64,000 bases of DNA from positions 29,450,001 through 29,514,000 of the forward strand of contig OZ024754.1 of assembly GCA_964016885.1 (NCBI GenBank). The letters are read 5' to 3'. Below, piece by piece: positions 3,401 to 59,788 of this stretch. Source of the DNA: Eledone cirrhosa (lineage: Eukaryota). The notes beneath the pieces are model-generated. The model saw nothing but the letters and a program-made list of their open reading frames with translations. It made no database searches and was not told the DNA's origin. The stretch's first letter is position 1; each line of letters starts with the position of its first letter. The position numbers and the translations under genes are program-made.

Positions 3401-3988
3401 GGATGAATATATTTACTTCAGACCTGCCAACCTTAAAAAACGCAAACGAGGAACACCATAAAAAAATAACGCCCCAAATTGGGGGAAACGGGGTAAAATT
3501 GAAAGATTTTACATAATGAAAGCTATACCTATTTTCACAAGAGAAGACATCTATCACCAACACCAAAGTGGGAGGGAGACCTCCCTGTCGGACAGGGAGA
3601 GTTAACAGGTATCTTACTGGAATGATAACAAATAACATTAATCGATAGAATTAAAATCTAAATTACTAAGAATGAGTCGATATCCTGAACTAGTGATATC
3701 ACTGACACAGATACGCTATTATTTAAACGGTTATTGAGGTTAATGTATTAAATTAATAGAGTTTCAAGAAAGTTAACCAATATGCAAACAAGAAAGTAGC
3801 ATCCGATATCATGGCTATAATATATCGAGATGATCAATAATGCGATGTTTTCTTGCTTTAACCCTTTCATTATCTTATTTCTAATGATAAACACTGTTTA
3901 TTATCTTAAAATAAGTTTTTAAGTAATCAGGAATTAAAGGGATTTAGTAATATAAGGGATGTTCTCATCACGTTGTTGTTTTGGAGTA

Positions 3989-7629: not shown

Positions 7630-9040
7630 AACGAAGGAGTTGTGGTAAGGAACCAGATGGACCATAACGTACCAGAGTACTCGATACTTAGGGTAGTAGA
7701 GTGGGTAATAGGAAAAGGTATGTCCTCGACGGCAGAGCTCAAGCCATTTCGACGGCTATTTCTGGACTAAATTAGAATTTTTAGCCTGGTAAATAAATAG
7801 CCGAACTTTTCAAGAGGTACTTCCTTATATGGGAAGATTGTAGTTGTCAAAAGGATTGGTCAAAATTTCTTATAAACACAATTAAGTCTATCATGGCAGT
7901 GGGTGCGAGGTGGGGATGGCTGAACTTGCCTGTAGAGCAATGAGGGAGTGGGTGGGGCCGGTCAAGCGTTGAAAGGGAAATCTATGCAGCAAATTCTAAG
8001 GATTGTGTATGAAAGTAGGCGAAAAGGGTTCTGGAGAAAATAGAGGAGGGATGTTATAGAAAAGTTAAATCAATTGAGATTTGGAAACAATAAAAAAAAT
8101 AAGAGAAAGATATATAAAAATATAAAATTGGTTAGTAAGAAGTGATAAAAAGCAAAGACTGTGGAGTCTAAAACAGCTTCTATATTTATGTTGGTGGTGC
8201 TTTTTCGGCCACTGCTAAGTTGAGAATAAAAGATACTAAATAGGAATTTTTGATGTTATAGAATTGTGTAGTAAAATGTAATACAAAATCTCTGGGGTCT
8301 AACACAGCTGCTATGATTAGTTAGTATTGCATTTTCGGCCAATGCTATCTTTAATTTACTGGCGTGGGGGTACTGAGGCTACAGAGGCCCGATGAGCTGC
8401 CTCGGGATTGGCGAAAGGGGAAAAAAGAAAGAGGAAGAAGATCGGCAGTGGAAGGAAGTGATAGGGGGAGACAGAGGGAAGAATGGAAACTGAGAGGAAA
8501 AGAAAAGAGGTACATCTACCTATGTCAGCTGGGGTTTCCCCTATCTTATTCGGCAAGTGGGATGTTTCATGCCATTGTCTACCCATCCGGGTCGTTAGGG
8601 GGTTTGAGAGCGGGGTAATTCCTACGCAATCGGTGTTTGCATGCCGTTACCAGTTCGTCTTTTTTGTTTAGGAGTTGGTCCTTCGTAAACAGCATTTGTT
8701 ATGTTTGCTCCGAGCATAAGTTACACGGACGGCGTCCTCCCGTGTAGGAGTTAGCTCTGGTCATTAAGCTCCAAGTAAGATTGTATGTTATGTTATTATC
8801 TTGAAGGTCCCAGATGTGGCCCGAAAATTCCACATCTGTGCCATCCGCACCCACTACCATGATAGACTTAATTGTGTTTACAAGAAATGTTGACTAATCC
8901 TCTTGACAACTACAATCTTCCCATATAAGGAAGTACCCCTTGAAAAGTTCGGCTATTTATTTACCAGGCTAAAAATTCTAATTTAGTCCAGAAATAGCCG
9001 TCGAAACGGCTTAAGCTCTGCCGTCGAGGACATACCTTTT

Positions 9041-11579: not shown

Positions 11580-12144
<565 letters not shown>

Positions 12145-14299: not shown

Positions 14300-14699
14300 G
14301 ATTAAAGTTTAAAAGTTTAAGCTAAGCATTTCTACTTTCACCCTATAGACGATCTTCTGAAAGTGAGAAAAATTAATCTGTAAAGGCAGAAGTATATATG
14401 TAAAAAAACGTTACAACCAAATATTGCCTTTAGAAAACAGGAAGAACTAAGGGCGGTATGTAGAGACATTCTTTTGAGATGGGCGAAAATTGCAAGGATA
14501 ATTACGTCGTTATGCATAGCGTGAAGAACAAATTCTTACTATGGAAGGAATATAACTTTGTTATGAAAAAACCACCTGACTAATATTCTTTTCAAAAAGG
14601 TTTCCAGCGACCATGTATGGGAAATGATGTTAATAAAAATAAAATGATTAAAAAAACCCCCAAAACATGAAGGTATTAATAATAGTAAAAGTAATAGTA

Positions 14700-18445: not shown

Positions 18446-19816
18446 CAAGTAAATGCACACATCTATGCAATTATGAACTCCAAATGTTTTCAGTAATTAG
18501 TGGCAACAATGCATTTATCCTTAAGAGGATTTAGTCGATGGATTATTTTGTGTCACCACCTGAGAAATAAAGTCTGGTAATTAATTCGTAACACATCGTT
18601 TCCAGTAACATTCTAATACAATGATTATATTCCTTTTTATGCCAAAATAGAAGAAAGAGAGAAAAATACATTTCGTCTCAACCATAGAACAGCATTTTAA
18701 GGAAAGGAAAAATGGAGATAGTTATGTGTGAGTGTGTGGATATTGTGGATATGATGTCTGTTTTACAGCCATGCTGCTCCAGGAACCGTCCCGCCACAGG
18801 GCAACATTAGAAATGTCTACTATTGCAGCGTCCTGGTTTATCCGTGAGTGGTGAGTGCATTTTTGATAGGCGGAAACTGTAGAAGTAAGTTATATGAAGC
18901 TCTATTCATTATGACCTGAATGCTCCACCCCTCTTCCTTTAACCAGCACTCCCCACCTCACCTCACGTGCACGTCGTCCCATACACGTGCACACTGACAC
19001 AGATGCACCATTGCGACACCACACGGAAATACTCACACACACTCTCTCTCTCACACACACACACATAGGTATATTCCATATACATCATTAGTTAACACAA
19101 ACTATTGTGAGATATGTAATAAATGGCTGGTAAGTTTCAAAAATCACTTTATATATTTCTATCGCATTGTACCAAATTTTTTACACTTATCAGTCCTTCA
19201 TTTAATACACTTACTCATAAACACACACGTAGAAACACATACATATTCACATACACAAACACCTGCACATATACACACGCACACACACATTCTCACCCAG
19301 TGTCGTATATTGTTGCGTTACTATGACGTTACTATGGTCGTTATATAATTTCTCTCTCGTTATTTCACCTTTTCGAGTTGTGTTTTGTCTCATATAATTA
19401 ATTTCTATTTGATATACACAGAGAAACCACACACATACGATATCAATACATCGAGACATATATACTAAACATCACGAACAATATATGTGCCACTCCAACA
19501 ACACATACACACACAATGTAGAAATAAATACAATACACACGCTCAGATGCCCCCTCTTTTCTTATTTTCTTCTATCTGTGAACCTTGTCGTTGCGTTCTT
19601 TCTACTCTCGATGCTTATAGATATACAATATCAATAGCTTTATTAGTTTCACACTTGAAAGGAAAAGGAAAAAGGAAAGTTCGACGTATCGAACGTTGGT
19701 TCTTCATCGGGATTAGAAGGAACACAAAGACCAAGTCCAAAGATAGAAGAAGATAAAAAAGAGGTGCATGTGAGTCGGACACGGGTGGTAGCTATAAACG
19801 GCCATATAGTTTCTCT
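16600..19816. repeat. large inverted duplication, ~1.37 kb arms, with a (TA)n-rich spacer
   Basis: 16600-17971 is the reverse complement of 18441-19816 with scattered substitutions; mirrored ORFs appear in the track (16660/19487, 16957/19247). Confidence 0.95.
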
Positions 19817-21085
19817 GCATATTTGGGCTTGATTGACGGCCACCCAACACTTTTTCGACTGAGGAACTGCTTCGCCATGCCGAAGGTCGTCTACTTCTCC
19901 CGTCGCTGACCTCGATACTTGTATCCGAGCAGCAGCCGATGAGATATGCAACGTCAAGTTTGACGACATAGGGTGGCAACAGGCCACTTTACCTGTCAAG
20001 TATGGCGGCTTTGGCCTCCGGTCCCCGATCTCACTAGCTTTGCCGGCGTATCTTTCGTCGGTAACCTCGTGCCGCGTCATCGTCAGCAGGGTTCTTCAAA
20101 ACACAACAGAAACCTCTGGGTTCAGAGAACGTGAGGCCGCCTGTGAGACGTGGTACCGGCTGGGACTTAGCCCAGTAGACGTCCCTCCTCTTTTTCTCTC
20201 TGTTGACATCAAGTCCCCCAACGCACTTGGGATGCCATTCTGTGCAGCCTGGCCTCAGATAGGCTCACGCGCCAGCTCGACCAGCACCGCCTTACTTGCT
20301 TTCGTGCGGCCTCCAAACCCCATAGTGGTGCCCGGCTCCATGCCTTGCCCTCCTTCTCCACTGGCACGCAGCTAGACAACCATAGCCTGCGCATCGGCGT
20401 TTCCTTGATGCTGGGCCTCCGGATCTGCCAGCAATTTCGCTGCGGTTCCACCGTGGACTTTTTCGGCCTCCACCCGCTTTCTTGTCGCCACAGTGCCGAG
20501 CGCATTTCACGCCATACTCAACGAGGTCATTAAGCATGGCTTGGACGCTGCAGGCTTCCCTTCCCAGCTCGAGCCTGTGGGGCTGGATCGAGGGGACGGC
20601 AAAAGACCAGATGCCATGATGGTAAACCCCCCGTTCCGCGGTGGCAAACCCCTCGTCTGGGATGCGACTTGCCCCGACACTTTCTGCAGCCGCAACCTCG
20701 TCCAGGCTGCGACTGACCAAGGTTCTGCTGCACGTCGGGCTGAGGGGGCCAAACTCCTGAAATATCGGTCGCTCTACGACAGGTTTGCGGTCGTATCCCT
20801 GGCAGTGGAGACTTCTGGTGTCCTCGGCCCCAGGGCTCCCTCCTTACTCACCACCATAAGCGCTGAGCTGGCCAGCCGTAGGTGTGAGCCCCGCGAGTTG
20901 GAGTGGCTTTTCCAGCGCGTCTCCCTTGCCGTCCTCCGGGGAAACGCCTTCTCCATTCTGTCCGCCGGGGCTGTGAGTGGGCCCCATCGGGTACCGTTGT
21001 AGTTGTTGTATACAGATATTAACTCATCAATCCTTTTTAATGATTATTATTGATGAGCCTATTTTATAATTAGTTGTGGTTAAAT
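19817..21085 (+). pseudogene. CRE-clade non-LTR retrotransposon 3' fragment (RT thumb, CCHC finger, restriction-like endonuclease)
   Basis: QATLPVKYGGFGLR; C..CG....G.H.LSC......RH; LEPVGLDRGDGKRPD..LVWDATCPDT..AVETSG.LG..LFQRVSLAVLRGNA. Frameshifted, GC-rich, ends at a short (TA)n. Confidence 0.85.
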
Positions 21086-22140: not shown

Positions 22141-22502
<362 letters not shown>

Positions 22503-22641
22503 GATTTAAACAAGATTCAATGAGTATATCAAAGAATGAGTTTTACAATAGATTGGAAGCACTCTACGTAAAATAATTTTCCACACTTATTAATATTAAA
22601 ATACAAATATTAATAAAATAGATGTTCTTTTGATCAATTAC

Positions 22642-22694
22642 ATTTTATTATACATATTTCGGAGGTACAACAGTACATCCTCATCAGACAAAAT
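22642..22694 (-). ncRNA. minimal type I hammerhead ribozyme
   Basis: ATTTTGT-CTGATGA-GGA.GTAC/GTAC.TCC-GAA-A-TATGTA-TA-ATAAAAT, inside the (TA)n-flanked segment 22497-22748. Confidence 0.75.
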
Positions 22695-22743
22695 ATAATG
22701 ATACATGACATACCCTGAGATGTTAAATGGTTAAGATTTAATC

Positions 22744-22809
<66 letters not shown>

Positions 22810-31937: not shown

Positions 31938-33053
31938 CTGTGTTGTGTCGGTGTATGTAACATAATGTATACATAGGGAATTTTGGATATAATTTTATTG
32001 ATTCTCGGTTCAAAATCTACTAACGACTATTAACAATATATTTCTTTCTATAATACCTTCTTTAGAATATTTTTAATGTTCTTCATATTTCAGCTTATTC
32101 ACGTAACAGATTTTATTTCTATACAATTCCGTAACTCCTTGAACTTATCAGCTGTAATGTAACTATATATCTTTCTCTATTGAATATTTCCGCAATGACG
32201 ACTTATCAACTGTCCTTCATATATTTATATACCGTTATATTGAATTATTTTAAAATTACACAACAAAGAGATAAACACTACTGAATATGGTATGTATGTG
32301 TGTCTGTGTGCACGTATGAATATATATATTTATATATTTTTTCATATATTTTTTATATATCTATTTTTATTTTTATTTACATTTATTCAAGTATTAACGT
32401 TTATTCATTTATTTGTACCTCTATTCTTCTTTCTATCCTACGTTATTTTTACTTATGTTTGTCTCTCCTCTATCTACCATCATCTTCTATATATCTTCCT
32501 CTCTTTATATTTCTATCTATAATAATTTCTCCTTTTCTTCTTCCTCTTTTTCTGTTTATTTTTCCTTCTTCTTCTTTCTCCTTCTTCTCCTGCTTTCTGT
32601 ACTGTATTTATCTCCCTTTCTTCCTCCTTTTCTCTCTATATCTTTATTATTAATATTATTATTGATGATGTAATTTGAATTTGTAAATTTGCAAATTTGC
32701 CGGTTACATATATATTTTTTCAACAGTTTCCGAAGATCTAATAGAGTTAACATCGTATTTGAAATTGAGTTTCACTGCTTTTAGTGTTCAGCAATTTTTA
32801 GACAACTCTATCAGTGAAACAATTGTTAGACTGCAAATAAATCCCCTTTTTTGTACTGTGGCCCATGTTATTCTCCACCTTTTCAATTTTATTACTCCAA
32901 GATAAACTTACATATGAATAATACAAGTGAAATCATAAACTCGTCATCTACGTAAACCTCTTGTTGAGTCAAGCACGCCGTACGCTAAAACAATCCATAA
33001 TAATAAGTATTCACAACCTCTAATTGGATTACCTATAACGATATTTTGTTATC

Positions 33054-34158
<1,105 letters not shown>

Positions 34159-34212: not shown

Positions 34213-34447
34213 CACATATATATATAATATATATGTATATGTATATATACGTATATATATATATATATATATATATACATAAGTAGAAGTGGTATTTAAT
34301 TTGTTGGAAGTCCGACAAATATAAAGGTTTATAACTGATTTAGAGCACTCAACAAGTTACTGGAGTAAATATTCATTATCCAGTGAATTTCCAACCGATA
34401 AGGTATGATTTTCATGGGTTTGTCTCTATTTATAAAACAAACTTTGT

Positions 34448-34510
34448 ATTTTATCTGATGAAAGCGTACCAATGTTGTCTTGGTTGCCCTTGAAATATAT
34501 ATAATAAAAT
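34448..34510 (+). ncRNA. minimal type I hammerhead ribozyme
   Basis: ATTTTAT-CTGATGA-AAG..ACCAA/TTGGT..CTT-GAA-ATATATAT-A-ATAAAAT; 7 bp stem I; within the TA-flanked element 34281-34550. Confidence 0.8.
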
Positions 34511-34599
34511 AAATATGGTTTTATAAATATAGTTTCCATTTATTTAATATCATTGTATATATATACATATATATTTATATATATATACATATATATTTG

Positions 34600-41340: not shown

Positions 41341-41369
<29 letters not shown>

Positions 41370-41374
<5 letters not shown>

Positions 41375-42005
41375 AGATAAGCAGAACAAGTAAAATTCAA
41401 CCAATTTTTCAAAATAAATCAAAATTAATTTACAATTAAAATTAATCAAAATTAAAAAATATAATATAAATATTTACCTATTCAAATGGCCCTTACTGTA
41501 CAGTTTCATGTTGCAAAACATTAGATATCACATGGATATTAATGGAAAAGCAAAGATCATCGGAGAAGCATTTTCCTTTCCTAGGGTTAAAAACCCCAGG
41601 AACGATAAAATATATGACCTCACTCCAACTAATACAGGTCTAAAAGGCCGTGAAAGTGACCCATAAGTACGTTGGTGTATAGTGAAGGCGGGAAATCGTA
41701 GACTTGTTGTCTATGTTGGCTACCAAAAAAAATTTTTAGCAGCTAGATAGAACGACAGAATTTTTTCTCTACATAATTGGAGAATAATGGAAAGGAAAGG
41801 AAAATGCTTCTCTGATGATCTTTTCTTTTCCATTAATATCTATGTGATATCTAATGTTTTGCAATGAGAAACTGTACAGTAAGGGCCATTTGAATAGGTA
41901 AATATTTATATTATATTTTTTAATTTTGATTAATTTTAATTGTAAATTAATTTTGATTTATTTTGAAAAATTGGTTGAATTTTACTTGTTCTGCTTATCT
42001 TGATA
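41370..42005. mobile_element. foldback element with ~210 bp arms, each carrying a long-stem-II hammerhead
   Basis: 41370-41581 vs ~41794-42005. Plus strand 41806-41886 reads GCTTCT-CTGATGA-...CATTA.ATATC/GATAT.TAATG...-GAA-ACTGTACAGT-A-AGGGC. Confidence 0.8.
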
Positions 42006-42242
42006 TTAAGTTCTGGTATATCAAATTATTACCATAGAACCACGTTAAATCATAGACACCCTATGCATTTCTGGGAGTACATTGTACCCTCAGATATATT
42101 AACCTTATATATATATATATATATGACATATGATTATGTATAAGATTGATTTAATTGTCATCTATATATATAGATCTATAAATATAATTATGGATTTTCT
42201 TAGATATATACATATATGTATTGTAATAACATAAGTGGCACG

Positions 42243-44855: not shown

Positions 44856-45460
44856 CATGCGTTTCTGTGTGTTTGTCTGTGTGTGTGTGTGTGTGTGCAC
44901 GCGTTTCTGTGTGTTTGTCTGTGTGTGTGTGTATCACTACACTTAAATGTTTGCTATGAAGTAATCGTTTATATAAAACATTAAAACACTTAACTGAAAT
45001 ATTTTAGTCATTCGCTATTAAATTCTCTCTCTCATTGAAAATAATCAAGTAGTAAGATTTGTTTTAATTATGCACTTTTAAAAACTCAATTTTGCGTTGT
45101 TTTATCAAAAAAATAACTTTCAACTGTTAAGTGGTTTATGTTTCACATATAGTGTATAGCTTCATAGAGTATAGTAGAAGAAATATAGGAAGTGTGTATG
45201 TATATATATATAAGTATATATGTATGTAAGTATATATATACATATATCGTTTCTGAATTTGTTTAGCAAGATTCTTTATCTGAAATCGTGTGTTGAAACC
45301 GATATTGTTATACTTTGGGAGGGTCATGTTGCCAATAAGAAACACACGCACCAGTTGCTTTCACTTCAATTTAATTTATTATATATTTATAAATTTACAA
45401 ATTTATAAATTTCTGGTTGGTTGGTTGGTTCCACAACCAGATAGTTGTTTATATATATAT

Positions 45461-45505
45461 AGTCATAGTTCTTTCGTCACACACTCTGTGACCTCTTCAG
45501 TGACT
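45461..45505 (-). ncRNA. minimal type I hammerhead ribozyme in a PLE pseudo-LTR
   Basis: AGTCA-CTGAAGA-G-GTCACA-GAGTG-TGTGAC-GAA-AGAACT-A-TGACT. Confidence 0.9.
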
Positions 45506-45810
45506 GGGGATTTCTTTCTTCGTTCCTGTGCCTTTCCTTTCTTCTATCCTACGCCATTTTGTTTGTGTGTGGGTTGCGTGCTCCGTTTGCGCATGCGTCA
45601 CATCCGGGTGTCTGTGTGTGTTTGTGTTCATTTTTCTATTTTTCTATTTATATTTTTCTATTTGTTTGTTTATTTATTTATTTATTGTTGGTTGGTTGTT
45701 TGTTCTATGTGTGTGTGTGTTTTCATTTTGTCTTGTGTGTGTTTTCATTTTGTGTGTGTTTTCAATTGTAAGTTGTTTGTTCTATGTGTGTGTGTGTTTT
45801 CATTTTGTCC

Positions 45811-46254
45811 TTAATTGTAAGTTGTGATGTTGCTGTTCCACTCATGTTTTCTATTTAATTTTGGTTTTAATTCTTTTATGCTTACTGCCTCTGTAATTTG
45901 CCTAAACATTGCGTCTTTCTTGTGTGTGGATTCTATTTTTATTTCTATGCTCTCTAATTTACCCCTGTGTTCTATCTTAGCATGTTGGTAGAGTACAGAT
46001 GATTCTTTATTATCTTGGAGGTCTCGCCAGTGTTCATTTATTCGTTCCCCTATACTACGAGCTGTCTCACCTATGTACACTATATTTTTGTTTCTACATT
46101 GTCCTTCAGTACATCTTATGCTATACACTACATTTCTAGTTTTACAGTTAATATGGGGGCTTATTTTACAGGTTATACATTTCTTATCTATACATGAGGG
46201 TCTTTGGAACGGGTATGTCTTGCTAATGAGTGTTTTTACGGAGGTACCAGGTCT
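45811..46254 (-). CDS. 5'-truncated PLE ORF: Cys-rich linker and GIY-YIG endonuclease
   Basis: Uninterrupted frame RPGTSVKTLISKTYPFQRPSCIDKKCITCKISPHINCKTRNVVYSIRCTEGQCRNKNIVYIGETARSIGERINEH...LYQH...RQITEAVSIKELKPKLN. Confidence 0.9.
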   Translation of the reverse strand, partial: RPGTSVKTLISKTYPFQRPSCIDKKCITCKISPHINCKTRNVVYSIRCTEGQCRNKNIVYIGETARSIGERINEHWRDLQDNKESSVLYQHAKIEHRGKLESIEIKIESTHKKDAMFRQITEAVSIKELKPKLNRKHEWNSNITTYN

Positions 46255-46802
46255 AACGGAGATTCATTCGGTCTCCTAGTTAGAATTTAGTCTACGACTT
46301 CTGCTATACCATTTACGTGGTTTTGTCTTTGCGTGCTATTGTTCTCCACACTCCACATATGACGTATTATCTTCGTTTTTTTCGTTCATTGCCAGAGAAC
46401 GTCTCTATGCACCACCTAATAGAACATTAGTCTACGACCTCTTTTATACCATAAACGTGGTTCTGTCTTTGCGCGTAATTGTTTTTCACCGCTCCTATTA
46501 ATGACGTATCTTATTCGTTTTATCCCGTTCTTAGCCAGCGAACGTTACTACGAACCAAAGTACCGTCTTCCTGTCTTCCTCCGGTTGCAACGTTTTTTGA
46601 AATATCCAGTTCTGCGTTTACAGATTGACTTTGTTAGTTTCAGAAGATCCCGTTAATGGTGAAAGCAGCGATTCTTTGCTTAAACTTTAATCTGTTATTT
46701 TAATAAATATTTGCTCTACGGTTCTTATATATTTGATATATATTTATCCTTATCGAGCCCTCTTTGGATTTTAGTCTTCAAATTTATTATTATTACTATA
46801 AA

Positions 46803-46989
46803 GGGCGGTGGATTGGCAGTATCGGTAGAGGGTCGGACGCCATGCTTTCCAGCATAGTTCCGTCCCTTTACGATCTGAGTTCAAATCCCGCCGAGGTTGA
46901 CTTTGCCTTTCATCCTTACGGGGTCGATAAAATAAAGTACCAGTAATACACTGGATAATTGCTGGCCTTGTGCCTAAAGTAGAAACAAT

Positions 46990-46992
<3 letters not shown>
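46803..46992 (+). mobile_element. OK-like SINE, full length
   Basis: A box TGGCAGTATCGG, B box GAGTTCAAATCC, core and tail; attactata on both sides. Confidence 0.9.
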
Positions 46993-47081
<89 letters not shown>

Positions 47082-47122
47082 TTACAAACAACAATCAAAG
47101 AGTGTTTAGAACATTTAATCAT

Positions 47123-47166
47123 TTACGAACGTTTCATCCTACCTCAAGGCTGAATCATCAGCGTAA
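47123..47166 (-). ncRNA. minimal type I hammerhead ribozyme
   Basis: TTACG-CTGATGA-TTCAGCCTTGAGGTAGGAT-GAA-ACGT-T-CGTAA; the element starts right after a (TA)/(TG) tract. Confidence 0.75.
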
Positions 47167-47537
47167 TATAAGAAAGGTTAAAACACAAATATAATATCAG
47201 AAGTTTGTCATAAGAACATTTTGAGGATACATAATATGGGAAGTAAGCATATGTATCAACATTTATATAAGAAAAGATAGCTAAGGTAGAAGAAGCATAT
47301 GAAAGATATGAGCATATAAATGTAATAAAATAAAATTAGGTGCAGCTAAAAGCGTTAAAAATTAAAAAAATTAAAATTCATAAGCATTACAAAAGTTTAT
47401 AACATTAATAAGGGCGGGTGTGCAGTTCAAATATAAGACTTAAGAATATAAGAATATAAAAATACATCTCCAAAATATATTTTGATAAACATTTCGACTG
47501 CGTCATTCAGTCATAAAGATAAAGTATTATTTTTCAA

Positions 47538-48105
47538 TCGAGGTTAACTTTGCCTTTCATCTTTACGGGGTCGATAAAATAAAGTACCAGTAATGTACTG
47601 GGTAATTGCTGGCCTTGTGCCTAAAGTAGAAACAATTATTTTTCAAAGGTAATAATTGTTTCTACTTTAGGCACAAGGCCAGCAAATTACCCAGTACATT
47701 ACTGGTACTTTATTTTATCGACCCCGTAAGGATGAAAGACAAAGTTAACCTCGACGGGATTTGAACTCAGACCGTAAAGGGACGTAACTATGGTGGAAAG
47801 CATGGCGTCCGACCCTCTACCGATACTGCCAATCCACAGGCAATAATGTCGAATGAGTGTAGTCAGCAAAATAAAAATAAAATATAGGTTAAAGTGTTAT
47901 TATTATTAATCAAAGGGCGGTGGATTGGCAGTATCGGAAGAGAGTCGGACGCCATGCTTTCCAGCATAGTTACGTCCCTTTACGGTCTGAGTTCAAATCC
48001 TGTCGAGGTTAACTTTGCCTTTCATTCTTACGGCGTCGAAAAAATAAAGTACCAGTAATGTACTGGGTAATTGCTGGCCTTGTGCCAAAAGTAGAAACAA
48101 TTATT
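47538..48105. mobile_element. three OK-like SINEs in alternating orientation (+ partial, -, +)
   Basis: 47538-47640, 47650-47837 and 47914-48105. Confidence 0.9.
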
Positions 48106-48899
48106 AATCAAACTATTTAGGAATTAATGTTGAATAAATATAATCAGCAAAGAAAATCCAATATAGAATAAGTGTTATCATCGGAAAATATACTAAGCAT
48201 AAATATATATATACAGGCAATATAGACTAAAACTATATAAGAGAATACTTTAATTTTTAGGGTTGTTTTAATTGACTGAAGACTTTTGTTATTTTAACTT
48301 TTCATCTTTCCTGCAATTCCTTTACCATTTGCCTCTACAACAATATTCAATTTAATAACTTTGAATAAGATAGCAAAAATAGCTGGGAAGATGGAATTAA
48401 CTTCTATATTACAAAGATTCATTAGAAGCAACAAAGCTGTTGTTATTGTTGTTGTTGTTGGTGGTGGTGGTAGTAGTGGTGGTGGTAGTCGTGGCGGTGC
48501 TGCTGTTATTGTTGTTGTTGTACAATAATTCGTGCCAATGGGTACCATGGGTTTTGATTTGCAGACTGTTCATTCCCAGCTAAACCCATATTCTTTTATA
48601 GATTTGGAACAAAAATATCTTTGACAAAGGAATCACAAAATATACTGGGTAAAATGCCAGTAGGAAAATGGTTATGAAGCATTAGATTGTTTTTTAAATG
48701 ATTAAACAATTTGTTCATCTATAATTGATATATTAAACATCTTATGTATTAAAATATGCATTTTAATTACTATTATTATCATTGTTCAAATCCGGCCGAG
48801 GTTAACTTTGCCTTTCATCCTTACGGGTTCGATAAAATAAAGTACCAGTAATACACTGGGGTAATTTCTGGCCTTGTGCCAAAAGTAGAAACAATTATG

Positions 48900-51800
48900 T
48901 ATTGGCAGTATCGGTAGAGGGTGGGACGCCATGCTTTGACGCATAGAGTTACGACCCTTGCCATTCTGTGTTCAGATCCCACCGAGGTTAACTTTGCCTT
49001 TCATCCTTACGGGGTCGATAAAATAAAGTCCCAGTAAAGCACTGGGTAATTGCTGTCCTTGTGCCAAAAGCAGAAACAATTATTATCATTATTATTTTGC
49101 AGATTGTCACTGCATTACCAAGTGCAGCACAGTGAGCCTTGGGTATGTGCAGTGTGCTTTATGGTGTATTGAGAGTACTCTTCATAATATGTGTGCGGTG
49201 CTTGATAATGCTATTAATTGTATGTTGTGTATGAGATTGTATGCTGGGATTTTGGACTTTGGTCATGTATCAGTTTGTGTGTTTTTTATCATAACCAGAG
49301 CACCTATAATTATAGGTATTGCTTCTGTCTTCATCGTCTACATTTGTCGATTCACCTTCTACAAAATTTTATACTCATGTTTTCTACTACTCCATATATT
49401 TCCATATTTCTTGTTATCCATGAGAGTGTTATCATATCATATGGTTTACAATAAGCAAACCATGCCATGCTCAGATTTGTGTGCCTCCTTTTGTCAATTA
49501 ATAGCTGATCTTTTGTTCCCCGGCTCCACTTTCAACACCTTTACTATTCAGTTGGTAGCAGCCTACTTTTTTCTAGATATCCATAGAATTCACCAGCCAA
49601 AAGATGTCAGTAGTTTCCTCATTAGTGGAAGATATGTTACTAGTCGAAGATTGGATAGTGTTATGCTTTTTAATTTCTTTGACACATAGCAATGTCTTTC
49701 CCTTTGTCTGCGAACTTGGAACTAAGCTTTTCTACAAGCACACATCCAGCTGTTGTGTTATCCTTTCATAGTGCCTTCTCAGCTTCTTCATCCAATATCA
49801 TTAAATACCATTAGCTTCTGGTTACTTCGAATTTGGTATTTTTCTTATCTGCAATTTTTTATATTTTCTGTAATTATTTGTATGTTGCCTTGAACTTCCA
49901 CATTTCTTAACCTATCTCGGATTTCCTGTAGCCAATCCACTCACGATTATCATTAATATTCTATAGATTGATCCCAAATCCCAGCCATCCCTCCTAAAAG
50001 CTTGGATTTCTTTGACCTCAGGTATCGATATTTGGTATTTGCCAGTCTAATTCCTCAAACAACTTTCTCTGATTAGCTTCAAATAAACTCTTCAGCCTGA
50101 TCTGCTTTATTCTACTGTCGTATCTCTACAAGCTTGCCTTGATCGTTACTGCTCCTTGCTTCAATTCTTCCAATACCACATCATACATTTTATATTTTAT
50201 TCTTTATGTTCTTTCCAGCCATATTTTTTGTGATTTCATTCCATAATTCCTTTTATGGTTTTCAATCTATCAATTTGTCTCAACTTCCTTAACAAATTCG
50301 TTAACGCCAATATGGTTCTTTTCGTTATGTTTGTTCCCTTCTTCTGTATCCAACATTCTCTGCGAAAACATTTCCGGTAACCTTGTTAATCTTGTTAGCG
50401 TCAGTTATATTTACTTTACGCCTCTCTTCTTATCTGAGATTGAGAGGTGTTTCACCCTGACCTTCTATATCATATTGACACGTCTTCCTTACTATTTCTT
50501 ATTGATCATCATCATCATATCATTGTAATATAGTCCTTTCCACTAATTCTTCTTCTTCTTCTTCTTCTTCTTCTTCTTCTTCTTCTTCTTCTTCTTCTTC
50601 TTCTTCTTCTTCTTCTTCTTCTTCTTCTTCTTCTTCTTCTTCTTCTTCTTCTTCTTCTTCTTCTTCTTCTTCTTCTTCTTCTTCTTCTTCTACCATAGTA
50701 TTGCTATAATGTTTATGAACCATGCCTAAATAAAGCACCGGTCAGATTTTTGAGGGGTTTTAATCAATTAACTCTCCGGCAAAGATTTGTGTGCCAGATT
50801 TGTGTGCCTCCTTTTGTCAATTAATAGCTGATCTTTTGTTCCCCGGCTCCACTTTCGACACCTTTTCTATTCAGTTGGTAGCAGCCTACTTTTTTCTAGA
50901 TATCCATAGAATTCACCAGCCAAAAGATGTCAGTAGTTTCCTCATTAGTGGAAGACATGTTATTAGTCGAAGATTGGATAGTGTTATGCTTTTTAATTTC
51001 CTTGACACATAGCAATGTCTTTCCCTTTTGTCTCCGAACTTGGAACTAAGCTTTTCTACAAGCACACATCCAGCTGTTGTGTTATCCTTTCATAGAGCCT
51101 TCTCAGCTTCTTCATCCAATATCATTAAATACCATTAGCTTCTGGTTACTTCGAATTTCATTGTAATATAGTCCTTTCCACTAATTCTTCTTCTTCTTCT
51201 TCTTCTTCTTCTTCTTCTTCTTCTTCTTCTTCTTCTTCTTCTTCTTCTTCTTCTTCTTCTTCTTCTTCTTCTTCTTCTTCTTTCTTCTTCTTCTTCTTCT
51301 TCTTCTTCTTCTTCTTCTTCTTCTTCTTCTTCTTCTTCTTCTACCATAGTATTGCTATAATGTTTATGAACCATGCCTAAATAAAGCACCGGTCAGATTT
51401 TTGAGGGGTTTTAATCAATTAACTCTCCGGCAAAGCCCTAAAATTGCAGACCTTGTGCCTAAAGTAGAAATCATTATTCGATACCGAAAAATAGCAAAAA
51501 TATAACACAATATAGTAAAACTCAGAAGACAAAAGACTGCGGTGAAACCAGGATAAATAGTAGGGATGTACAAAGCTGGAATGTGTGTCCCACTTATATT
51601 ATTATTGGCAATGGATTGACAGTATCGGTAGAGGGTCGGAAGCCATGCTTTGACGCATAGAGTTACGACCCTTGCCATTCTGTGTTCAAGTCCCGCCGAG
51701 GTTAACTTTACCTTTCATCCTTACGGGGTCGATAAAATAAAGTCCCAGTAAAGCACTGGGTAATTGCTGTCCTTGTGCCAAAAGCAGAAACAATTATTAT

Positions 51801-54800
51801 CATTATTATTTTGCAGATTGTCACTGCATTACCAAGTGCAGCACAGTGAGCCTTGGGTATGTGCAGTGTGCTTTATGGTGTATTGAGAGTACTCTTCATA
51901 ATATGTGTGCGGTGCTTGATAATGCTATTAATTGTATGTTGTGTATGAGATTGTATGCTGGGATTTTGGACTTTGGTCATGTATCTGTTTGTGTGTTTTT
52001 TATCATAACCAGAGCACCTATTATTATAGGTATTGCTTCTGTCTTCATCGTCTACATTTGTCGATTCACCTTCTACAAAATGTTATACTCATGTTTTCTA
52101 CTACTCCATATATTTCCATATTTCTTGTTATCCATGAGAGTGTTATCATATGGTTTACAATAAGCAAACCATGCCATGCTCAGATTTGCGTGCCTCCTTT
52201 TGTCAATTAATAGCTGATCTTTTGTTCCCCGGCTCCACTTTCAACACCTTTTCTATTCAGTTGGTAGCAGCCTACTTTTTTCTAGATATCCATAGAATTC
52301 ACCAGCCAAAAGATGTCAGTAGTTTCCTCATTAGTGGAAGACATGTTATTAGTCGAAGATTGGATAGTGTTATGCTTTTTAATTTCTTTGACACATAGCA
52401 ATGTCTTTCCTTTTGTCTCCGAACTTGGAACTAAGCTTTTCTACAAGCACACATCCAGCTGTTGTGTTATCCTTTCATAGAGCCTTCTCAGCTTCTTCAT
52501 CGAATATCATTAAATACCATTAGCTTCTGGTTACTTCGAATTTGGTATTTTTCTTATCTGCAATTTTTTATATTTTCTGTAATTATTTGTATGTTGCCTT
52601 GAACTTCCACATTTCTTAACCTATCTCGGATTTCCTGTAGCCAATCCACTCACGATTATCATTAATATTCTATAGATTGATCCCAAATCCCAGCCATCCC
52701 TCCTAAAAGCTTGGATTTCTTTGACCTCAGGTATCGATATTTGGTATTTACCAGTCTAATTCCTCAAACAACTTTCTCTGATTAGCTTCAAACAAACTCT
52801 TCAGCCTGAACTGCTTTATTCTACTGTCGTATCTCTACAAGCTTGCCTTGATCGTTACTGCTCCTTGCTTCAATTCTTCCAATACCACATCATATATTTT
52901 ATATTTTATTCATTATGTTCTTTCCAGCCATATTTTTTTGTGATTTCATTCCATAATTCCTTTTATGGTTTTCAATCTATCAATTTGTCTCAACTCCCTT
53001 AACAAATTCGTTAACGCCAATATGGTTCTTTTCGTTATGTTTGTTCCCTTCTTCTGTATCCAACATTCTCTGCGAAAACATTTCCGGTAACCTTGTTAAT
53101 CTTGTTAGCGTCAGTTATATTTACTTTACGCCTCTCTTCTTATCTGAGATTGAGAGGTGTTTCACCCTGGCCTTCTATATCATATTGACACGTCTTCCTT
53201 ACTATTTCTTATTGATCATCATCATATCATTGTAATATAGTCCTTTCCACTAATTCTTCTTCTTCTTCTTCTTCTTCTTCTTCTTCTTCTTCTTCTTCTT
53301 CTTCTTCTTCTTCTTCTTCTTCTTCTTCTTCTTCTTCTTCTTCTTCTTCTTCTTCTTCTTCTTCTTCTTCTTCTTCTTCTTCTTCTTCTTCTTCCATAGT
53401 ATTGCTATAATGTTTATGAACCATGCCTAAATAAAGCACCGGTCAGATTTTTGAGGGGTTTTAATCAATTAACTCTCCGGCAAAGCCCTAAAATTGCAGA
53501 CCTTGTGCCTAAAGTAGAAATCATTATTCGATACCGAAAAATAGCAAAAATATAACACAATATAGTAAAACTCAGAAGACAAAAGACTGCGGTGAAACCA
53601 GGATAAATAGTAGGGATGTACAAAGCTGGAATGTGTGTCCCACTTATATTATTATTGGCAATGGATTGACAGTATCGGTAGAGGTGTCGGAAGCCATGCT
53701 TTGACGCATAGAGTTACGGCCCTTTCCATTCTGAGTTCAAGTCCCGCCGAGGTTAACTTTGCCTTTCATCCTTACGGGGTCGATAAAATAAAGTCCCAGT
53801 AAAGCACTGGGTAATTGCTGTCCTTGTGCCAAAAGCAGAAACAATTATTATCATTATTATTTTGCAGATTGTCACTGCATTACCAAGTGCAGCACAGTGA
53901 GCCTTGGGTATGTGCAGTGTGCTTTATGGTGTATTGAGAGTACTCTTCATAATATGTGTGCGGTGCTTGATAATGCTATTAATTGTATGTTGTGTATGAG
54001 ATTGTATGCTGGGATTTTGGACTTTGGTCATGTATCAGTTTGTATGTTTTTTATCATAACCAGAGCACCTATAATTATAGGTATTGCTTCTGTCTTCATC
54101 GTCTACATTTGTCGATTCACCTTCTACAAAATGTTATACTCATGTTTTCTACTACTCCATATATTTCCATATTTCTTGTTATCCATGAGAGTGTTATCAT
54201 ATCATATGGTTTACAATAAGCAAACCATGCCATGCTCAGATTTGCGTGCCTCCTTTTGTCAATTAATAGCTGATCTTTTGTTCCCCGGCTCCACTTTCGA
54301 CACCTTTTCTATTCAGTTGGTAGCAGCCTACTTTTTTCTAGATATCCATAGAATTCACCAGCCAAAAGATGTCAGTAGTTTCCTCATTAGTGGAAGACAT
54401 GTTATTAGTCGAAGATTGGATAGTGTTATGCTTTTTAATTTCTTTGACACATAGCAATGTCTTTCCTTTTGTCTCCGAACTTGGAACTAAGCTTTTCTAC
54501 AAGCACACATCCAGCTGTTGTGTTATCCTTTCATAGAGCCTTCTCAGCTTCTTCATCGAATATCATTAAATACCATTAGCTTCTGGTTACTTCGAATTTG
54601 GTATTTTTCTTATCTGCAATTTTTTATATTTTCTGTAATTATTTGTATGTTGCCTTGAACTTCCACATTTCTTAACCTATCTCGGATTTCCTGTAGCCAA
54701 TCCACTCACGATTATCATTAATATTCTATAGATTGATCCCAAATCCCGCCATCCCTCCTAAAAGCTTGGATTTCTTTGACCTCAGGTATCGATATTTGGT

Positions 54801-56555
54801 ATTTGCCAGTCTAATTCCTCAAACAACTTTCTCTGATTAGCTTCAAACAAACTCTTCAGCCTGAACTGCTTTATTCTACTGTCGTATCTCTAAAAGCTTG
54901 CCTTGATCGTTACTGCTCCTTGCTTCAATTCTTCCAATACCACATCATACATTTTATATTTTATTCTTTATGTTCTTTCCAGCCATATTTTTTGTGATTT
55001 CATTCCATAATTCCTTTTATGGTTTTCAATCTATCAATTTGTCTCAACTCCCTTAACAAATTCGTTAACGCCAATATGGTTCTTTTCGTTATGTTTGTTC
55101 CCTTCTTCTGTATCCAACATTCTCTGCGAAGTCATTTCCGGTAACCTTGTTAATCTTGTTAGCGTCAGTTATATTTACTTTACGCCTCTCTTCTTATCTG
55201 AGATTGAGAGGTGTTTCACCCTGGCCTTCTATATCATATTGACACTTCTTCCTTACTATTTCTTATTGATCATCATCATATCATTGTAATATACTCCTTT
55301 CCACTAATTCTTCTTCTTCTTCTTCTTCTTCTTCTTCTTCTTCTTCTTCTTCTTCTTCTTCTTCTTCTTCTTCTTCTTCTTCTTCTTCTTCTTCTTCTTC
55401 TTCTTCTTCTTCTTCTTCTTCTTCTTCTTCTTCTTCTTCTTCTTCTTCTTCTTCTTCTTCTTCTTCTTCTTCTTCTACCATAGTATTGCTATAATGTTTA
55501 TGAACCATGCCTAAATAAAGCACCGGTCAGATTTTGGAGGGGTTTTAATCAATTAACTCTCCGGCAAAGATTTGTGTGCCAGATTTGTGTGCCTCCTTTT
55601 GTCAATTAATAGCTGATCTTTTGTTCCCCGGCTCCACTTTCGACACCTTTTCTATTCAGTTGGTAGCAGCCTACTTTTTTCTAGATATCCATAGAATTCA
55701 CCAGCCAAAAGATGTCAGTAGTTTCCTCATTAGTGGAAGACATGTTATTAGTCGAAGATTGGATAGTGTTATGCTTTTTAATTTCCTTGACACATAGCAA
55801 TGTCTTTCCCTTTTGTCTCCGAACTTGGAACTAAGCTTTTCTACAAGCACACATCCAGCTGTTGTGTTATCCTTTCATAGAGCCTTCTCAGCTTCTTCAT
55901 CCAATATCATTAAATACCATTAGCTTCTGGTTACTTCGAATTTCATTGTAATATAGTCCTTTCCACTAATTCTTCTTCTTCTTCTTCTTCTTCTTCTTCT
56001 TCTTCTTCTTCTTCTTCTTCTTCTTCTTCTTCTTCTTCTTCTTCTTCTTCTTCTTCTTCTTCTTCTTCTTCTTCTTCTTCTTCTTCTTCTTCTTCTTCTT
56101 CCATAGTATTGCTATAATGTTTATAAACCATGCCTAAATAAAGCACCGGTCAGATTTTGGAGCGGTTTTAATTAATTAACTCTCCGGCAAAGCCCTAAAA
56201 TTGCAGACCTTGTGCCTAAAGTAGAAATCATTATTCGATACCGAAAAATAGCAAAAATATAACACAATATAGTAAAACTCAGAAGACAAAAGACTGCGGT
56301 GAAACCAGGATAAATAGTAGGGATGTACAAAGCTGGAATGTGTATCCCACTTATATTGTTATTGGCAATGGATTGACAGTATCGGTAGAGGGTCGGAAGC
56401 CATGCTTTGACGCATAGAGTTACGGCCCTTTCCATTCTGAGTTCAAAACCCACCGAGGTTAACATTGCCTCATCCTTACGGGGTCGATCAAATAAAGTAC
56501 CAGTTATCTACTGGTTAATTGCTGGCCTTGTGCCAAAAGTAGAAACAATTATTAT
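48900..56555. repeat. higher-order tandem segmental array bounded by SINEs
   Basis: Three near-identical copies of SINE + LINE fragment + (TTC)n block, two with an extra internal ~650 bp duplication; repeated ORFs appear in the track. Confidence 0.95.
49090..50520 (-). pseudogene. R4/Dong-like LINE 3' fragment (copies also at ~51800-53225 and ~53850-55280)
   Basis: Minus frames give IPIIIGAL and IALSSTAHIL*RVLS, then an (AAT)n tail; many stops. Confidence 0.7.
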
Positions 56556-59008: not shown

Positions 59009-59422
59009 ATAAAATGTTAAAAAAAAAATAATGAATAAAACAATGAAACAGTTCCTTATATTAAACAAAAAAAGTTCATTATTTAACGATCGTTTCTAGG
59101 ACATATATGTGTTAGAATTGGCATGCATATTCAACAGATCTATGTACAAAATTATACAAAATTATACAAACTATCAAATATAATATACATACCAACACAT
59201 ACATATGCCGTCTTCAGAAATTTCTGAAGACGGCATATGTATGTGTTGGTATGTATATTATATTTGATAGTTTGTATAATTTTGTATAATTTTGTACATA
59301 GATCTGTTGAATATGCATGCCAATTCTAACACATATATGTCCTAGAAACGATCGTTAAATAATGAACTTTTTTTGTTTAATATAAGGAACTGTTTCATTG
59401 TTTTATTCATTATTTTTTTTTA

Positions 59423-59431
<9 letters not shown>
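59009..59431. repeat. essentially perfect ~420 bp palindrome; each arm carries a long-stem-II hammerhead
   Basis: Centre cagaaa|tttctg at 59220/59221. Plus strand 59220-59360 reads ATTT-CTGAAGA-[~114 nt hairpin]-GAA-ACGATCGT-T-AAAT. Confidence 0.9.
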
Positions 59432-59502
<71 letters not shown>

Positions 59503-59550
59503 CAACATGTTGTAGGACAGAACAAAGGAGAGACACAACATAGCAACCTA

Positions 59551-59593
59551 GTCACTGAGGAGGTCACAGAATGTGTGAGGGAAAATCTTTGAC
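59551..59593 (+). ncRNA. hammerhead motif in a solo PLE pseudo-LTR relative
   Basis: GTCA-CTGAGGA-GGTCACA..TGTGAGG-GAA-AATCT-T-TGAC; flanks resemble the reverse complement of 45310-45510. Confidence 0.65.
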
Positions 59594-59695
59594 AAAATAT
59601 AAACAACCATTCAGTTATCGAACCAACCAACCAACCAACAGAAAATGTATAATAAATTGAAGTAAAAATCAACAGTATAACCCTCCCAAAGTATA

Positions 59696-59788
<93 letters not shown>

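What the first reader, a model, noticed from the sequence alone, without database searches (positions are those of the whole stretch)
45250..46254. Candidate autonomous partner: intact-frame PLE GIY-YIG endonuclease followed by a perfect hammerhead
Seen: a 147-codon stop-free frame with a Cys-rich linker (C..KKC..C...NC) and a GIY-YIG domain (NVVY.I.C...YIGET.R...R..EH). About 300 nt downstream on the same strand is a fully paired hammerhead (45461-45505), and the element ends near a TA tract. A diverged solo copy of the terminal repeat lies at 59500-59700 between microsatellites. Inference: this is a relatively young PLE family whose endonuclease may nick (TA)n DNA, which would explain the insertion pattern across the window.
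Basis: partly seen in the sequence, partly recalled or inferred. Interest (0 to 1): 0.75.

Follow-up and report, generated by a model that had tools for sequence, protein, structure and literature searches.

The report
Truncated arm of TA-targeting Penelope retrotransposon
This 1-kb piece is a broken-off tail end of a very young, very abundant Penelope-like jumping gene that inserts into TA repeats; its back-to-back insertions almost always pair two different fixed ends, which likely means both sides of one DNA cut copy the same RNA, and its enzyme carries a long extra segment that may mark an unnamed lineage.

Summary
The frame, hammerhead and TA-flanked end are real. The copy is not autonomous: it is the last ~1.0 kb of a 4,313-nt Penelope-like element (PLE), with no start codon or RT. 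The family is autonomous and young (7 fetched copies with open 1,263-1,283-aa RT+GIY-YIG frames; ~0.35% divergence; over 20,000 exact TA-joined ends). Ends fall at two sites, +26 and +86 of the next ORF start, both ending AATAT. Head-to-head insertions carry one of each in 72 of 74 and, independently, 50 of 51 pairs, with ~12-bp target duplications and shared alleles: most likely twin priming on one RNA. The scan noted this two-armed pattern before on other DNA of this genome, and a one-sided tail is published. The hammerhead is an ordinary minimal PLE type, not 'perfect'. The 59500 copy belongs to an older sister subfamily. The family does not explain the window's other TA insertions, and no non-autonomous partner was found. 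The less expected point: the RT has a ~70-aa insertion at the telomerase IFD position, shared by a broad lineage that groups apart from Neptune-, Nematis- and Hydra-type RTs (motif-assigned references only).

The parts
45811..46254 (-). C-terminal 147 codons plus stop of the PLE ORF: end of RT thumb linker, Cx4CxxCx7C Zn-linker, GIY-YIG endonuclease with CCHH; 5'-truncated at unit nt 3409
   Evidence: 99% identical to aa 1137-1283 of natural copy L031
45328..45810 (-). 3' UTR / pseudo-LTR (also the 5' UTR of the next tandem unit)
   Evidence: same stretch lies before the ATG in tandem copies
45461..45505 (-). Minimal type I hammerhead: stem I 5 bp, CUGAAGA + unpaired G, stem II 6 bp, GAAA, stem III of 1-2 bp; predicted cut between 45466 and 45465
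   Evidence: type described in PMC4209133 (passages)
45242..45327 (-). Start of the next ORF (ATG at 45327) carried as terminus: passes the +26 site (45302) and ends at the +86 site; the 60 nt between are the PLE 'tail'; last 5-6 nt are shared with the TA flank
45190..45247 (.). TA-rich target tract at the 3' end
46257..46796 (+). 3' arm of a different, Hydra-type PLE family ('B') joined head-to-head to the 5' break by 1-2 extra bases; ends at B's long terminus
46636..46686 (+). Hammerhead-like motif of family B with core CAGAAGA (A at position 4)
   Evidence: 43 of 43 motif matches carry CAGAAGA
59502..59696 (+). Short terminal piece (pLTR with decayed hammerhead, ending at the +26 site before (TA)n) of an older sister subfamily

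Best explanation
The feature is a 5'-truncated, non-coding tail-end copy of a young, autonomous Penelope-like retrotransposon family whose RT-endonuclease protein likely cuts TA-rich DNA on both strands and likely uses both cut ends to prime reverse transcription at two fixed sites of its own RNA. [quoted passage not shown] (2, inferred) An RNA that runs through the hammerhead into the next ORF start is bound by the protein, probably as a dimer. (3, inferred from 12-13-bp duplications) Two staggered nicks leave 3' overhangs ending in AT repeats. (4, shown as a pattern; order and chemistry inferred) One end primes at +86 and the other at +26, each at an AAUAU that can pair with the primer. (5, inferred) Both cDNAs usually stop early and are joined head-to-head; when one aborts, a single arm is joined to flank, often with loss of flank. 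The window copy is such a single +86 arm whose 5' end was joined inside an older Hydra-type PLE. The hammerhead is carried along but does not set insertion ends.
For: Copies 97-99% identical, 37,742 first-look candidates. Seven open full ORFs among 119 loci. Model pLDDT 90.9; ranks 1-6 of the PDB search are telomerases. 214 of 228 arm ends at +26/+86; 183 of 214 abut AT alternation vs 8.1% background. Exact genome counts 9,304 (+26) and 9,426+1,856 (+86). One end of each type in 72 of 74 scorable pairs (p 3e-19) and 50 of 51 in an unselected 52.5-Mb stretch. Neither type is regularly the longer arm (31 vs 25). Arms share subfamily alleles at 224 of 227 comparisons vs 165 expected and stop within 12 nt of each other in 16 of 72 pairs vs 1.0 by permutation. 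Duplications of 12-13 bp in non-microsatellite targets L087, L107, L102, L115, L128. Only 2 of 232 arms stop near the hammerhead cut site and 16 run through a whole unit. In vitro a Poseidon PLE cuts and extends both strands and starts at two internal sites (PMC11167929, main text read).
Against: All mechanism is read from junctions; no enzyme or RNA data. Three pairs break the rule (two 26/26, one 86/86); 10 of 84 pairs were unscorable (7 broken, 3 at locus edge). 31 of 214 ends lack a clean TA tract, so the target is AT-rich DNA with a (TA)n preference, not strictly (TA)n. Duplication length cannot be read in pure TA, and includes bases shared with the element; two pairs (L119, L124) gave only 5-7 bp. 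56 of 72 pairs do not share a 5' stop, so one RNA molecule is not shown for most. In PAc the start sites had no homology to the cut DNA and did not differ by strand, unlike the AATAT ends here. The 119 loci came from the 150 best hits and favour long, young arms.
Confidence: 0.75

Rival explanations
1. Single TPRT plus fold-back or self-priming: one primed cDNA folds back and is copied, and the short end is made when the endonuclease or repair resolves the hairpin at +26 (tail as a resolution product, as proposed in PMC8557442 and PMC3846280).
For: Explains shared alleles and near-identical 5' stops in 16 of 72 pairs; junction overlaps of 1-8 nt are common.
Against: Fold-back predicts that the first-primed end type is always the longer arm; observed 31 vs 25. 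Single arms end at either site (31 vs 22). Two start sites were seen directly in vitro for PAc.
Confidence: 0.2
2. The window locus is one hybrid event: this family's RNP primed one end and a Hydra-type RNP primed the other end of the same break.
For: The two arms are head-to-head, joined by 1-2 bases, and each ends at a canonical terminus next to TA; both families follow the long/short rule.
Against: Both arms have the long end; no 12-bp duplication links the outer flanks (by eye); B arm looks older (about 5 near-private changes in 534 nt vs 1 in 751; Fisher p 0.09, unequal sampling); no other A-B head-to-head junction among 40 long single arms, while 22 of 40 lack (TA)5 within 15 nt of the 5' junction and several join other repeats.
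Confidence: 0.2
3. One reading: this element is the autonomous partner that drives the window's (TA)n hammerhead insertions.
For: The family is autonomous, abundant and TA-biased.
Against: This copy has no RT; the other hammerhead repeats (11911, 22657, 34455, 47132) share no detectable sequence with its ends; the genome holds several other EN+ PLE types, Hydra-, Neptune- and Nematis-like, any of which could be the helper.
Confidence: 0.1

Closest known systems
Nematis-clade EN+ PLEs (Craig et al. 2021, PMC8557442, Figs S2 and S7 as text)
   Same: C-terminal GIY-YIG with CCHH; short linker Cx4CxxCx7C with the same spacing as Nematis_C4; hammerhead in pLTR
   Different: RT motifs DKS and LRKDHK instead of DKG/DKR and LYKTHK; motif A to B spacing 131 vs 58-63 aa; separate long branch from motif-assigned Nematis-type RTs
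Hydra-clade PLEs (same paper, section 11)
   Same: (TA)n targeting, DKT/S, KDHK, a KLRW motif like RWK, hammerhead, C-terminal EN
   Different: Has CCHH and CxxC linker, lacks CxCx5C and C-terminal CxxC/CxH; 4.3 kb vs under 3 kb; long A-B insertion; ordinary GxxIG motif B and YVDD
Neptune-clade PLEs
   Same: CX2-5CxxC linker, CCHH, microsatellite bias
   Different: Linker spacer 7 aa vs about 25; no LPKIHK/DKG; separate branch from four Neptune-type families of the same genome. Neptune is paraphyletic in the paper, so nesting is not excluded
Naiad/Chlamys PLEs and TERT (IFD bearers)
   Same: Insertion between RT motifs 3(A) and 4(B); spacing 126-144 aa is in the TERT range (about 113-152, counted by eye from Fig. 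S1)
   Different: EN is C-terminal; canonical hammerhead present; Naiad insertion is only about 20 aa; homology of the insert to IFD untested
Poseidon PAc of Anolis (Frangieh et al. 2024, PMC11167929)
   Same: Two RT start sites inside the ORF start defining the tail; both strands cut; AT-rich targets; hammerhead not needed for insertion
   Different: Tail 60 nt (published 30-40); start sites end in AATAT that can pair with the TA primer; strict one-of-each pairing per insertion not reported there

Membership tests
EN+ Penelope-like elements | Single ORF with telomerase-like RT and GIY-YIG EN | tested here: met
   (family level; the window copy has EN only)
EN+ Penelope-like elements | Partial tandems (pLTR), inverted 5'-truncated arms, one-sided tail | tested here: met
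EN+ Penelope-like elements | Hammerhead motif in pLTR | tested here: met
   cleavage activity not testable
EN+ Penelope-like elements | Endonuclease nicking and RT activity | not testable with these tools
   catalytic motifs present; no assay
Nematis | Short CX2-5CxxC linker and CCHH EN at C terminus | tested here: met
Nematis | No insertion between RT3(A) and RT4(B); DKG-type and KTHK motifs | tested here: not met
   spacing 131 vs 58-63; DKS, KDHK
Nematis | RT phylogeny with named Nematis families | tested here: inconclusive
   one search used motif-assigned stand-ins only; deep nodes unresolved
Neptune | Long Zn-linker (about 25-aa spacer), DKG, LPKIHK, no IFD | tested here: not met
Neptune | RT phylogeny with named Neptune/Coprina families | tested here: inconclusive
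   apart from four in-genome Neptune-type RTs; no named or Coprina rows
Hydra | CCHH absent, CxCx5C linker, C-terminal CxxC/CxH | tested here: not met
   contrast family B
Hydra | (TA)n insertion, DKT-like motif, RWK-like motif | tested here: met
Naiad | N-terminal EN, CxC motif, no canonical hammerhead | tested here: not met
Penelope/Poseidon | No Cys linker between RT and EN | tested here: not met
TERT IFD | Insert has the fold and position of the telomerase IFD | tested here: inconclusive
   position and length match; confident mostly helical model; Foldseek gives whole-chain scores only

The most novel reading that the evidence does not exclude
The family is a hyper-abundant, probably still active member of an unnamed, widespread PLE clade that joins a telomerase-length insertion in the RT fingers to a C-terminal Nematis-like endonuclease and Hydra-like RT motifs, and its 20,000+ junctions show that PLE integration is an obligate asymmetric twin-priming reaction: two RT sites start 60 nt apart on one RNA from the two ends of a ~12-nt staggered cut.
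Probability: 0.4. Interest if true: 0.7.

Novelty: new variant of a known kind. Interest (0 to 1): 0.5.

Why it matters
PLEs are the sister group of telomerase and their integration steps are still largely unproven. A family with 99%-identical copies, natural full-length ORFs, fixed start sites and a countable one-of-each end rule makes the dimer/twin-priming model directly testable. If the lineage is indeed unnamed, the published statement that C-terminal-EN PLEs lack an IFD-position insertion needs revising, and 322 protein clusters at E<=1e-30 would gain a class. The 1-kb window copy itself is an ordinary dead fragment.

Full report
1. Observation. The minus strand holds a 150-aa stop-to-stop frame at 45811-46263 with a GIY-YIG match above the Pfam cut-off. 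Motifs map as CIDKKCITC 46194-46168, VVYSIRC 46131-46111, YIGET 46077-46063, ERINEH 46047-46030. A type I hammerhead lies at 45505-45461. It is not fully paired: one G is unpaired after CUGAAGA, and stem III is 2 bp on a 2-nt loop, which ViennaRNA forbids in a monomer; the homoduplex of that segment is weak (+1.4 kcal/mol). [quoted passage not shown] The pLTR at 59502-59696 is real (74%) but belongs to an older sister subfamily.

2. What it is. A protein search of the own 3.0-Gb genome gave 37,742 first-look candidates; the 150 scored were 97-100% identical. I fetched 119 loci of 4-10 kb around these hits (100 of 104 listed places plus 19 chosen for long frames or tandems). Seven carry an open Met-to-stop ORF of 1,263-1,283 aa. 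The unit is 4,313 nt from ATG to ATG. The ORF has a basic/helical N-terminus, an Asn/Thr/His-rich spacer of variable length (compare N-rich inserts in rotifer Penelopes, PMC3846280, passages), RT, thumb, Cys linker and EN. An AlphaFold model of the last 739 aa (pLDDT 90.9) ranks telomerases first to sixth in the PDB (E 7e-9 to 1e-6, TM about 0.35). Median divergence of 180 arms from the commonest base is 0.35%; the window copy differs at 7 of 751 sites, 6 of them shared with other copies. The window copy begins at unit nt 3409 and has no RT. The closest named protein is 69% identical, from Octopus vulgaris, so the host is probably an octopod; a recent O. vulgaris annotation lists 31 recently active Penelope-like families without clade detail (PMC13282606, passages).

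3. Ends and targets. Of 228 arm ends away from locus edges, 214 lie at +26 or +86 of the next ORF start (112 and 102); both sites end in AATAT; 183 of 214 are followed by at least 16 of 20 AT-alternating bases, against 8.1% of window positions. Exact 42-nt junction patterns occur 9,304 times (+26) and 9,426 plus 1,856 times (+86), with 385 copies reading on into the ORF and 0 for reversed controls. Of 84 head-to-head pairs, 72 have one end of each type, 2 are 26/26, 7 are broken and 3 are cut by the locus edge. In the first 52.5 Mb of contig C1, 216 listed exact ends form 51 tail-out pairs, 50 of them 26/86. Where the target is not pure TA, 12-13-bp duplications are visible (modal values 12 and 13 among 36 listed pairs; clear in L087, L107, L102, L115, L128; 5-7 in L119, L124). 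The arms of a pair share alleles (224 of 227 vs 165 expected; divergence 0.38% within vs 0.74% between). In 16 of 72 pairs both arms stop within 12 nt of each other (permutation mean 1.0, maximum 6 in 5,000). Either type can be the longer arm (31 vs 25). Only 2 of 232 arms stop near the hammerhead cut and 16 span more than one unit.

4. Mechanism. I commit to asymmetric twin priming (about 0.65 for this step; above 0.95 that the feature is a truncated EN+ PLE). Shown: domain content, fixed ends, pairing rule, duplications, allele sharing. Inferred: both-strand cutting with 3' overhangs, primer pairing with AAUAU, dimer, same RNA. Frangieh et al. 2024 (PMC11167929, parts 1-2 of 4 read) showed for a Poseidon PLE both-strand cutting and extension, two internal start sites that define the tail, and no need for hammerhead cleavage. 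Craig et al. 2021 (PMC8557442; abstract, sections 3, 6, 11, 12, 15, part of 13, supplement parts 1, 2, 54, 57, 59) note a 30-40-bp tail often at one end only. So the architecture is known; the strict count, 60-nt tail and primer microhomology are refinements. I found the pairing before consulting the scan's notes; one search then showed that the scan had reported two-armed insertions with two fixed ends for hammerhead repeats and PLEs elsewhere in this genome. Fold-back is the main rival and is disfavoured by the lack of a longer-arm bias.

5. The 5' neighbour. 46257-46796 (+) is the end of a second young family, B (3,167 candidates), whose ORF has the Hydra hallmarks RWR, DKT, CxCx5C, CxxC and CxH. 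B also pairs long and short ends (14 long/short rows, one a duplicate, 1 long/long, 1 unclear; tail about 89 nt). The head-to-head join could be a two-family hybrid event, but both ends are long, no duplication links the flanks, B looks older, and no second case was seen among 40 long single arms. I favour two events with loss of flank (0.8).

6. Window pattern. Only 45242 and 59696 carry ends of this family or its sister among about 37 TA clusters. Hydra-type pieces lie at 8582-8830, 14312-14418 and 46257-46796; other hammerhead repeats at 11911, 22657, 34455 and 47132 show no sequence link. The genome also has Neptune-type and Nematis-type families. The 'partner' claim is unsupported.

7. 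Lineage. Homologs (62 hits, 24-79% identity, mostly unnamed ENA proteins; 322 clusters at E<=1e-30) share DKS/T, KDHK, RPVC and a short Cys linker. Motif A to B spacing is 126-138 aa in this group against 58-63 in in-genome Neptune-type, Nematis-type and Hydra-type RTs (3 mis-parsed rows set aside), and 126-144 in all 55 of 150 representatives that span both motifs. The ~70-aa insert has conserved residues (E.GL, CP.R, G..P, R...W; 59 of 59 rows filled). In an RT tree the group is one side of a long branch (100/100), apart from the three stand-in groups; deeper forks are open. Craig et al. state that canonical PLEs lack the IFD, apart from sporadic Coprina cases. My searches found no description of such a group, but no named references were in the tree and Repbase, Dfam and Arkhipova 2006 were not available; it may be filed already as generic Penelope, Neptune or Nematis. 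I put an unnamed major lineage at about 0.5. Li et al. 2026 (10.64898/2026.07.22.740005, part 1 of 5) and Perreault et al. 2011 (PMC3088659, passages) were read for context only; the bioRxiv supplement was not seen.

8. Verdict. Ordinary dead fragment of an unusually informative family. New variant of a known kind; interest 0.5.

Noticed in passing
window 46636-46686 (+); L181 and other family B loci: Hydra-type family B carries a hammerhead-like motif with core CAGAAGA (A in place of the conserved U4) in 43 of 43 matches; a standard CUGANGA scan misses it. Activity unknown; the passages read from PMC3088659 mention U4C, not U4A.
   Followed up: partly
window 46257-46796 (+) and L179-L198: Family B, a young Hydra-type PLE with ~1-kb 3' UTR containing a duplicated 130-nt segment, follows the same long/short end rule with an ~89-nt tail.
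   Followed up: partly
window 46254/46257: Head-to-head junction between arms of two distantly related PLE families; possible but unlikely hybrid integration.
   Followed up: partly
window 46802-46991: Abundant ~190-nt SINE-like repeat (about 25 copies in the window) sits at B's terminus with an apparent ~9-bp duplication that includes B's last bases, so it came after B.
   Followed up: partly
window 11860-12040, 34282-34555, 22500-22760, 47076-47480: Other hammerhead-bearing repeats next to TA tracts (11911 and 34455 are one family, often in inverted pairs); helper element not identified.
   Followed up: partly
window 8582-8830 (-), 14312-14418: Hydra-type EN fragment and an older relative of family B's end.
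   Followed up: no
window 48897-56555: Tandem segmental repeats of about 2.0-2.7 kb (96-98% identical), each with a SINE and long (TTC)n tracts and a 220-codon open frame.
   Followed up: no
window 59085-59427, 47603-47688, 41369-42006: Long near-perfect palindromes or inverted repeats in AT-rich DNA, including a SINE pair head to head.
   Followed up: no
window 19649-21002 and 32939-33813: Fragments resembling non-LTR retrotransposon frames (a restriction-like endonuclease end; a CR1/L2-like RT end); labels recalled, not tested.
   Followed up: no
L088, L139: Single arms whose 5' flank holds an inverted copy of the 3' flank, suggesting rearrangement during insertion.
   Followed up: no
L229, L231, L232, L237, L239: The genome also holds several Neptune-type and one Nematis-type PLE family with long open frames.
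   Followed up: partly
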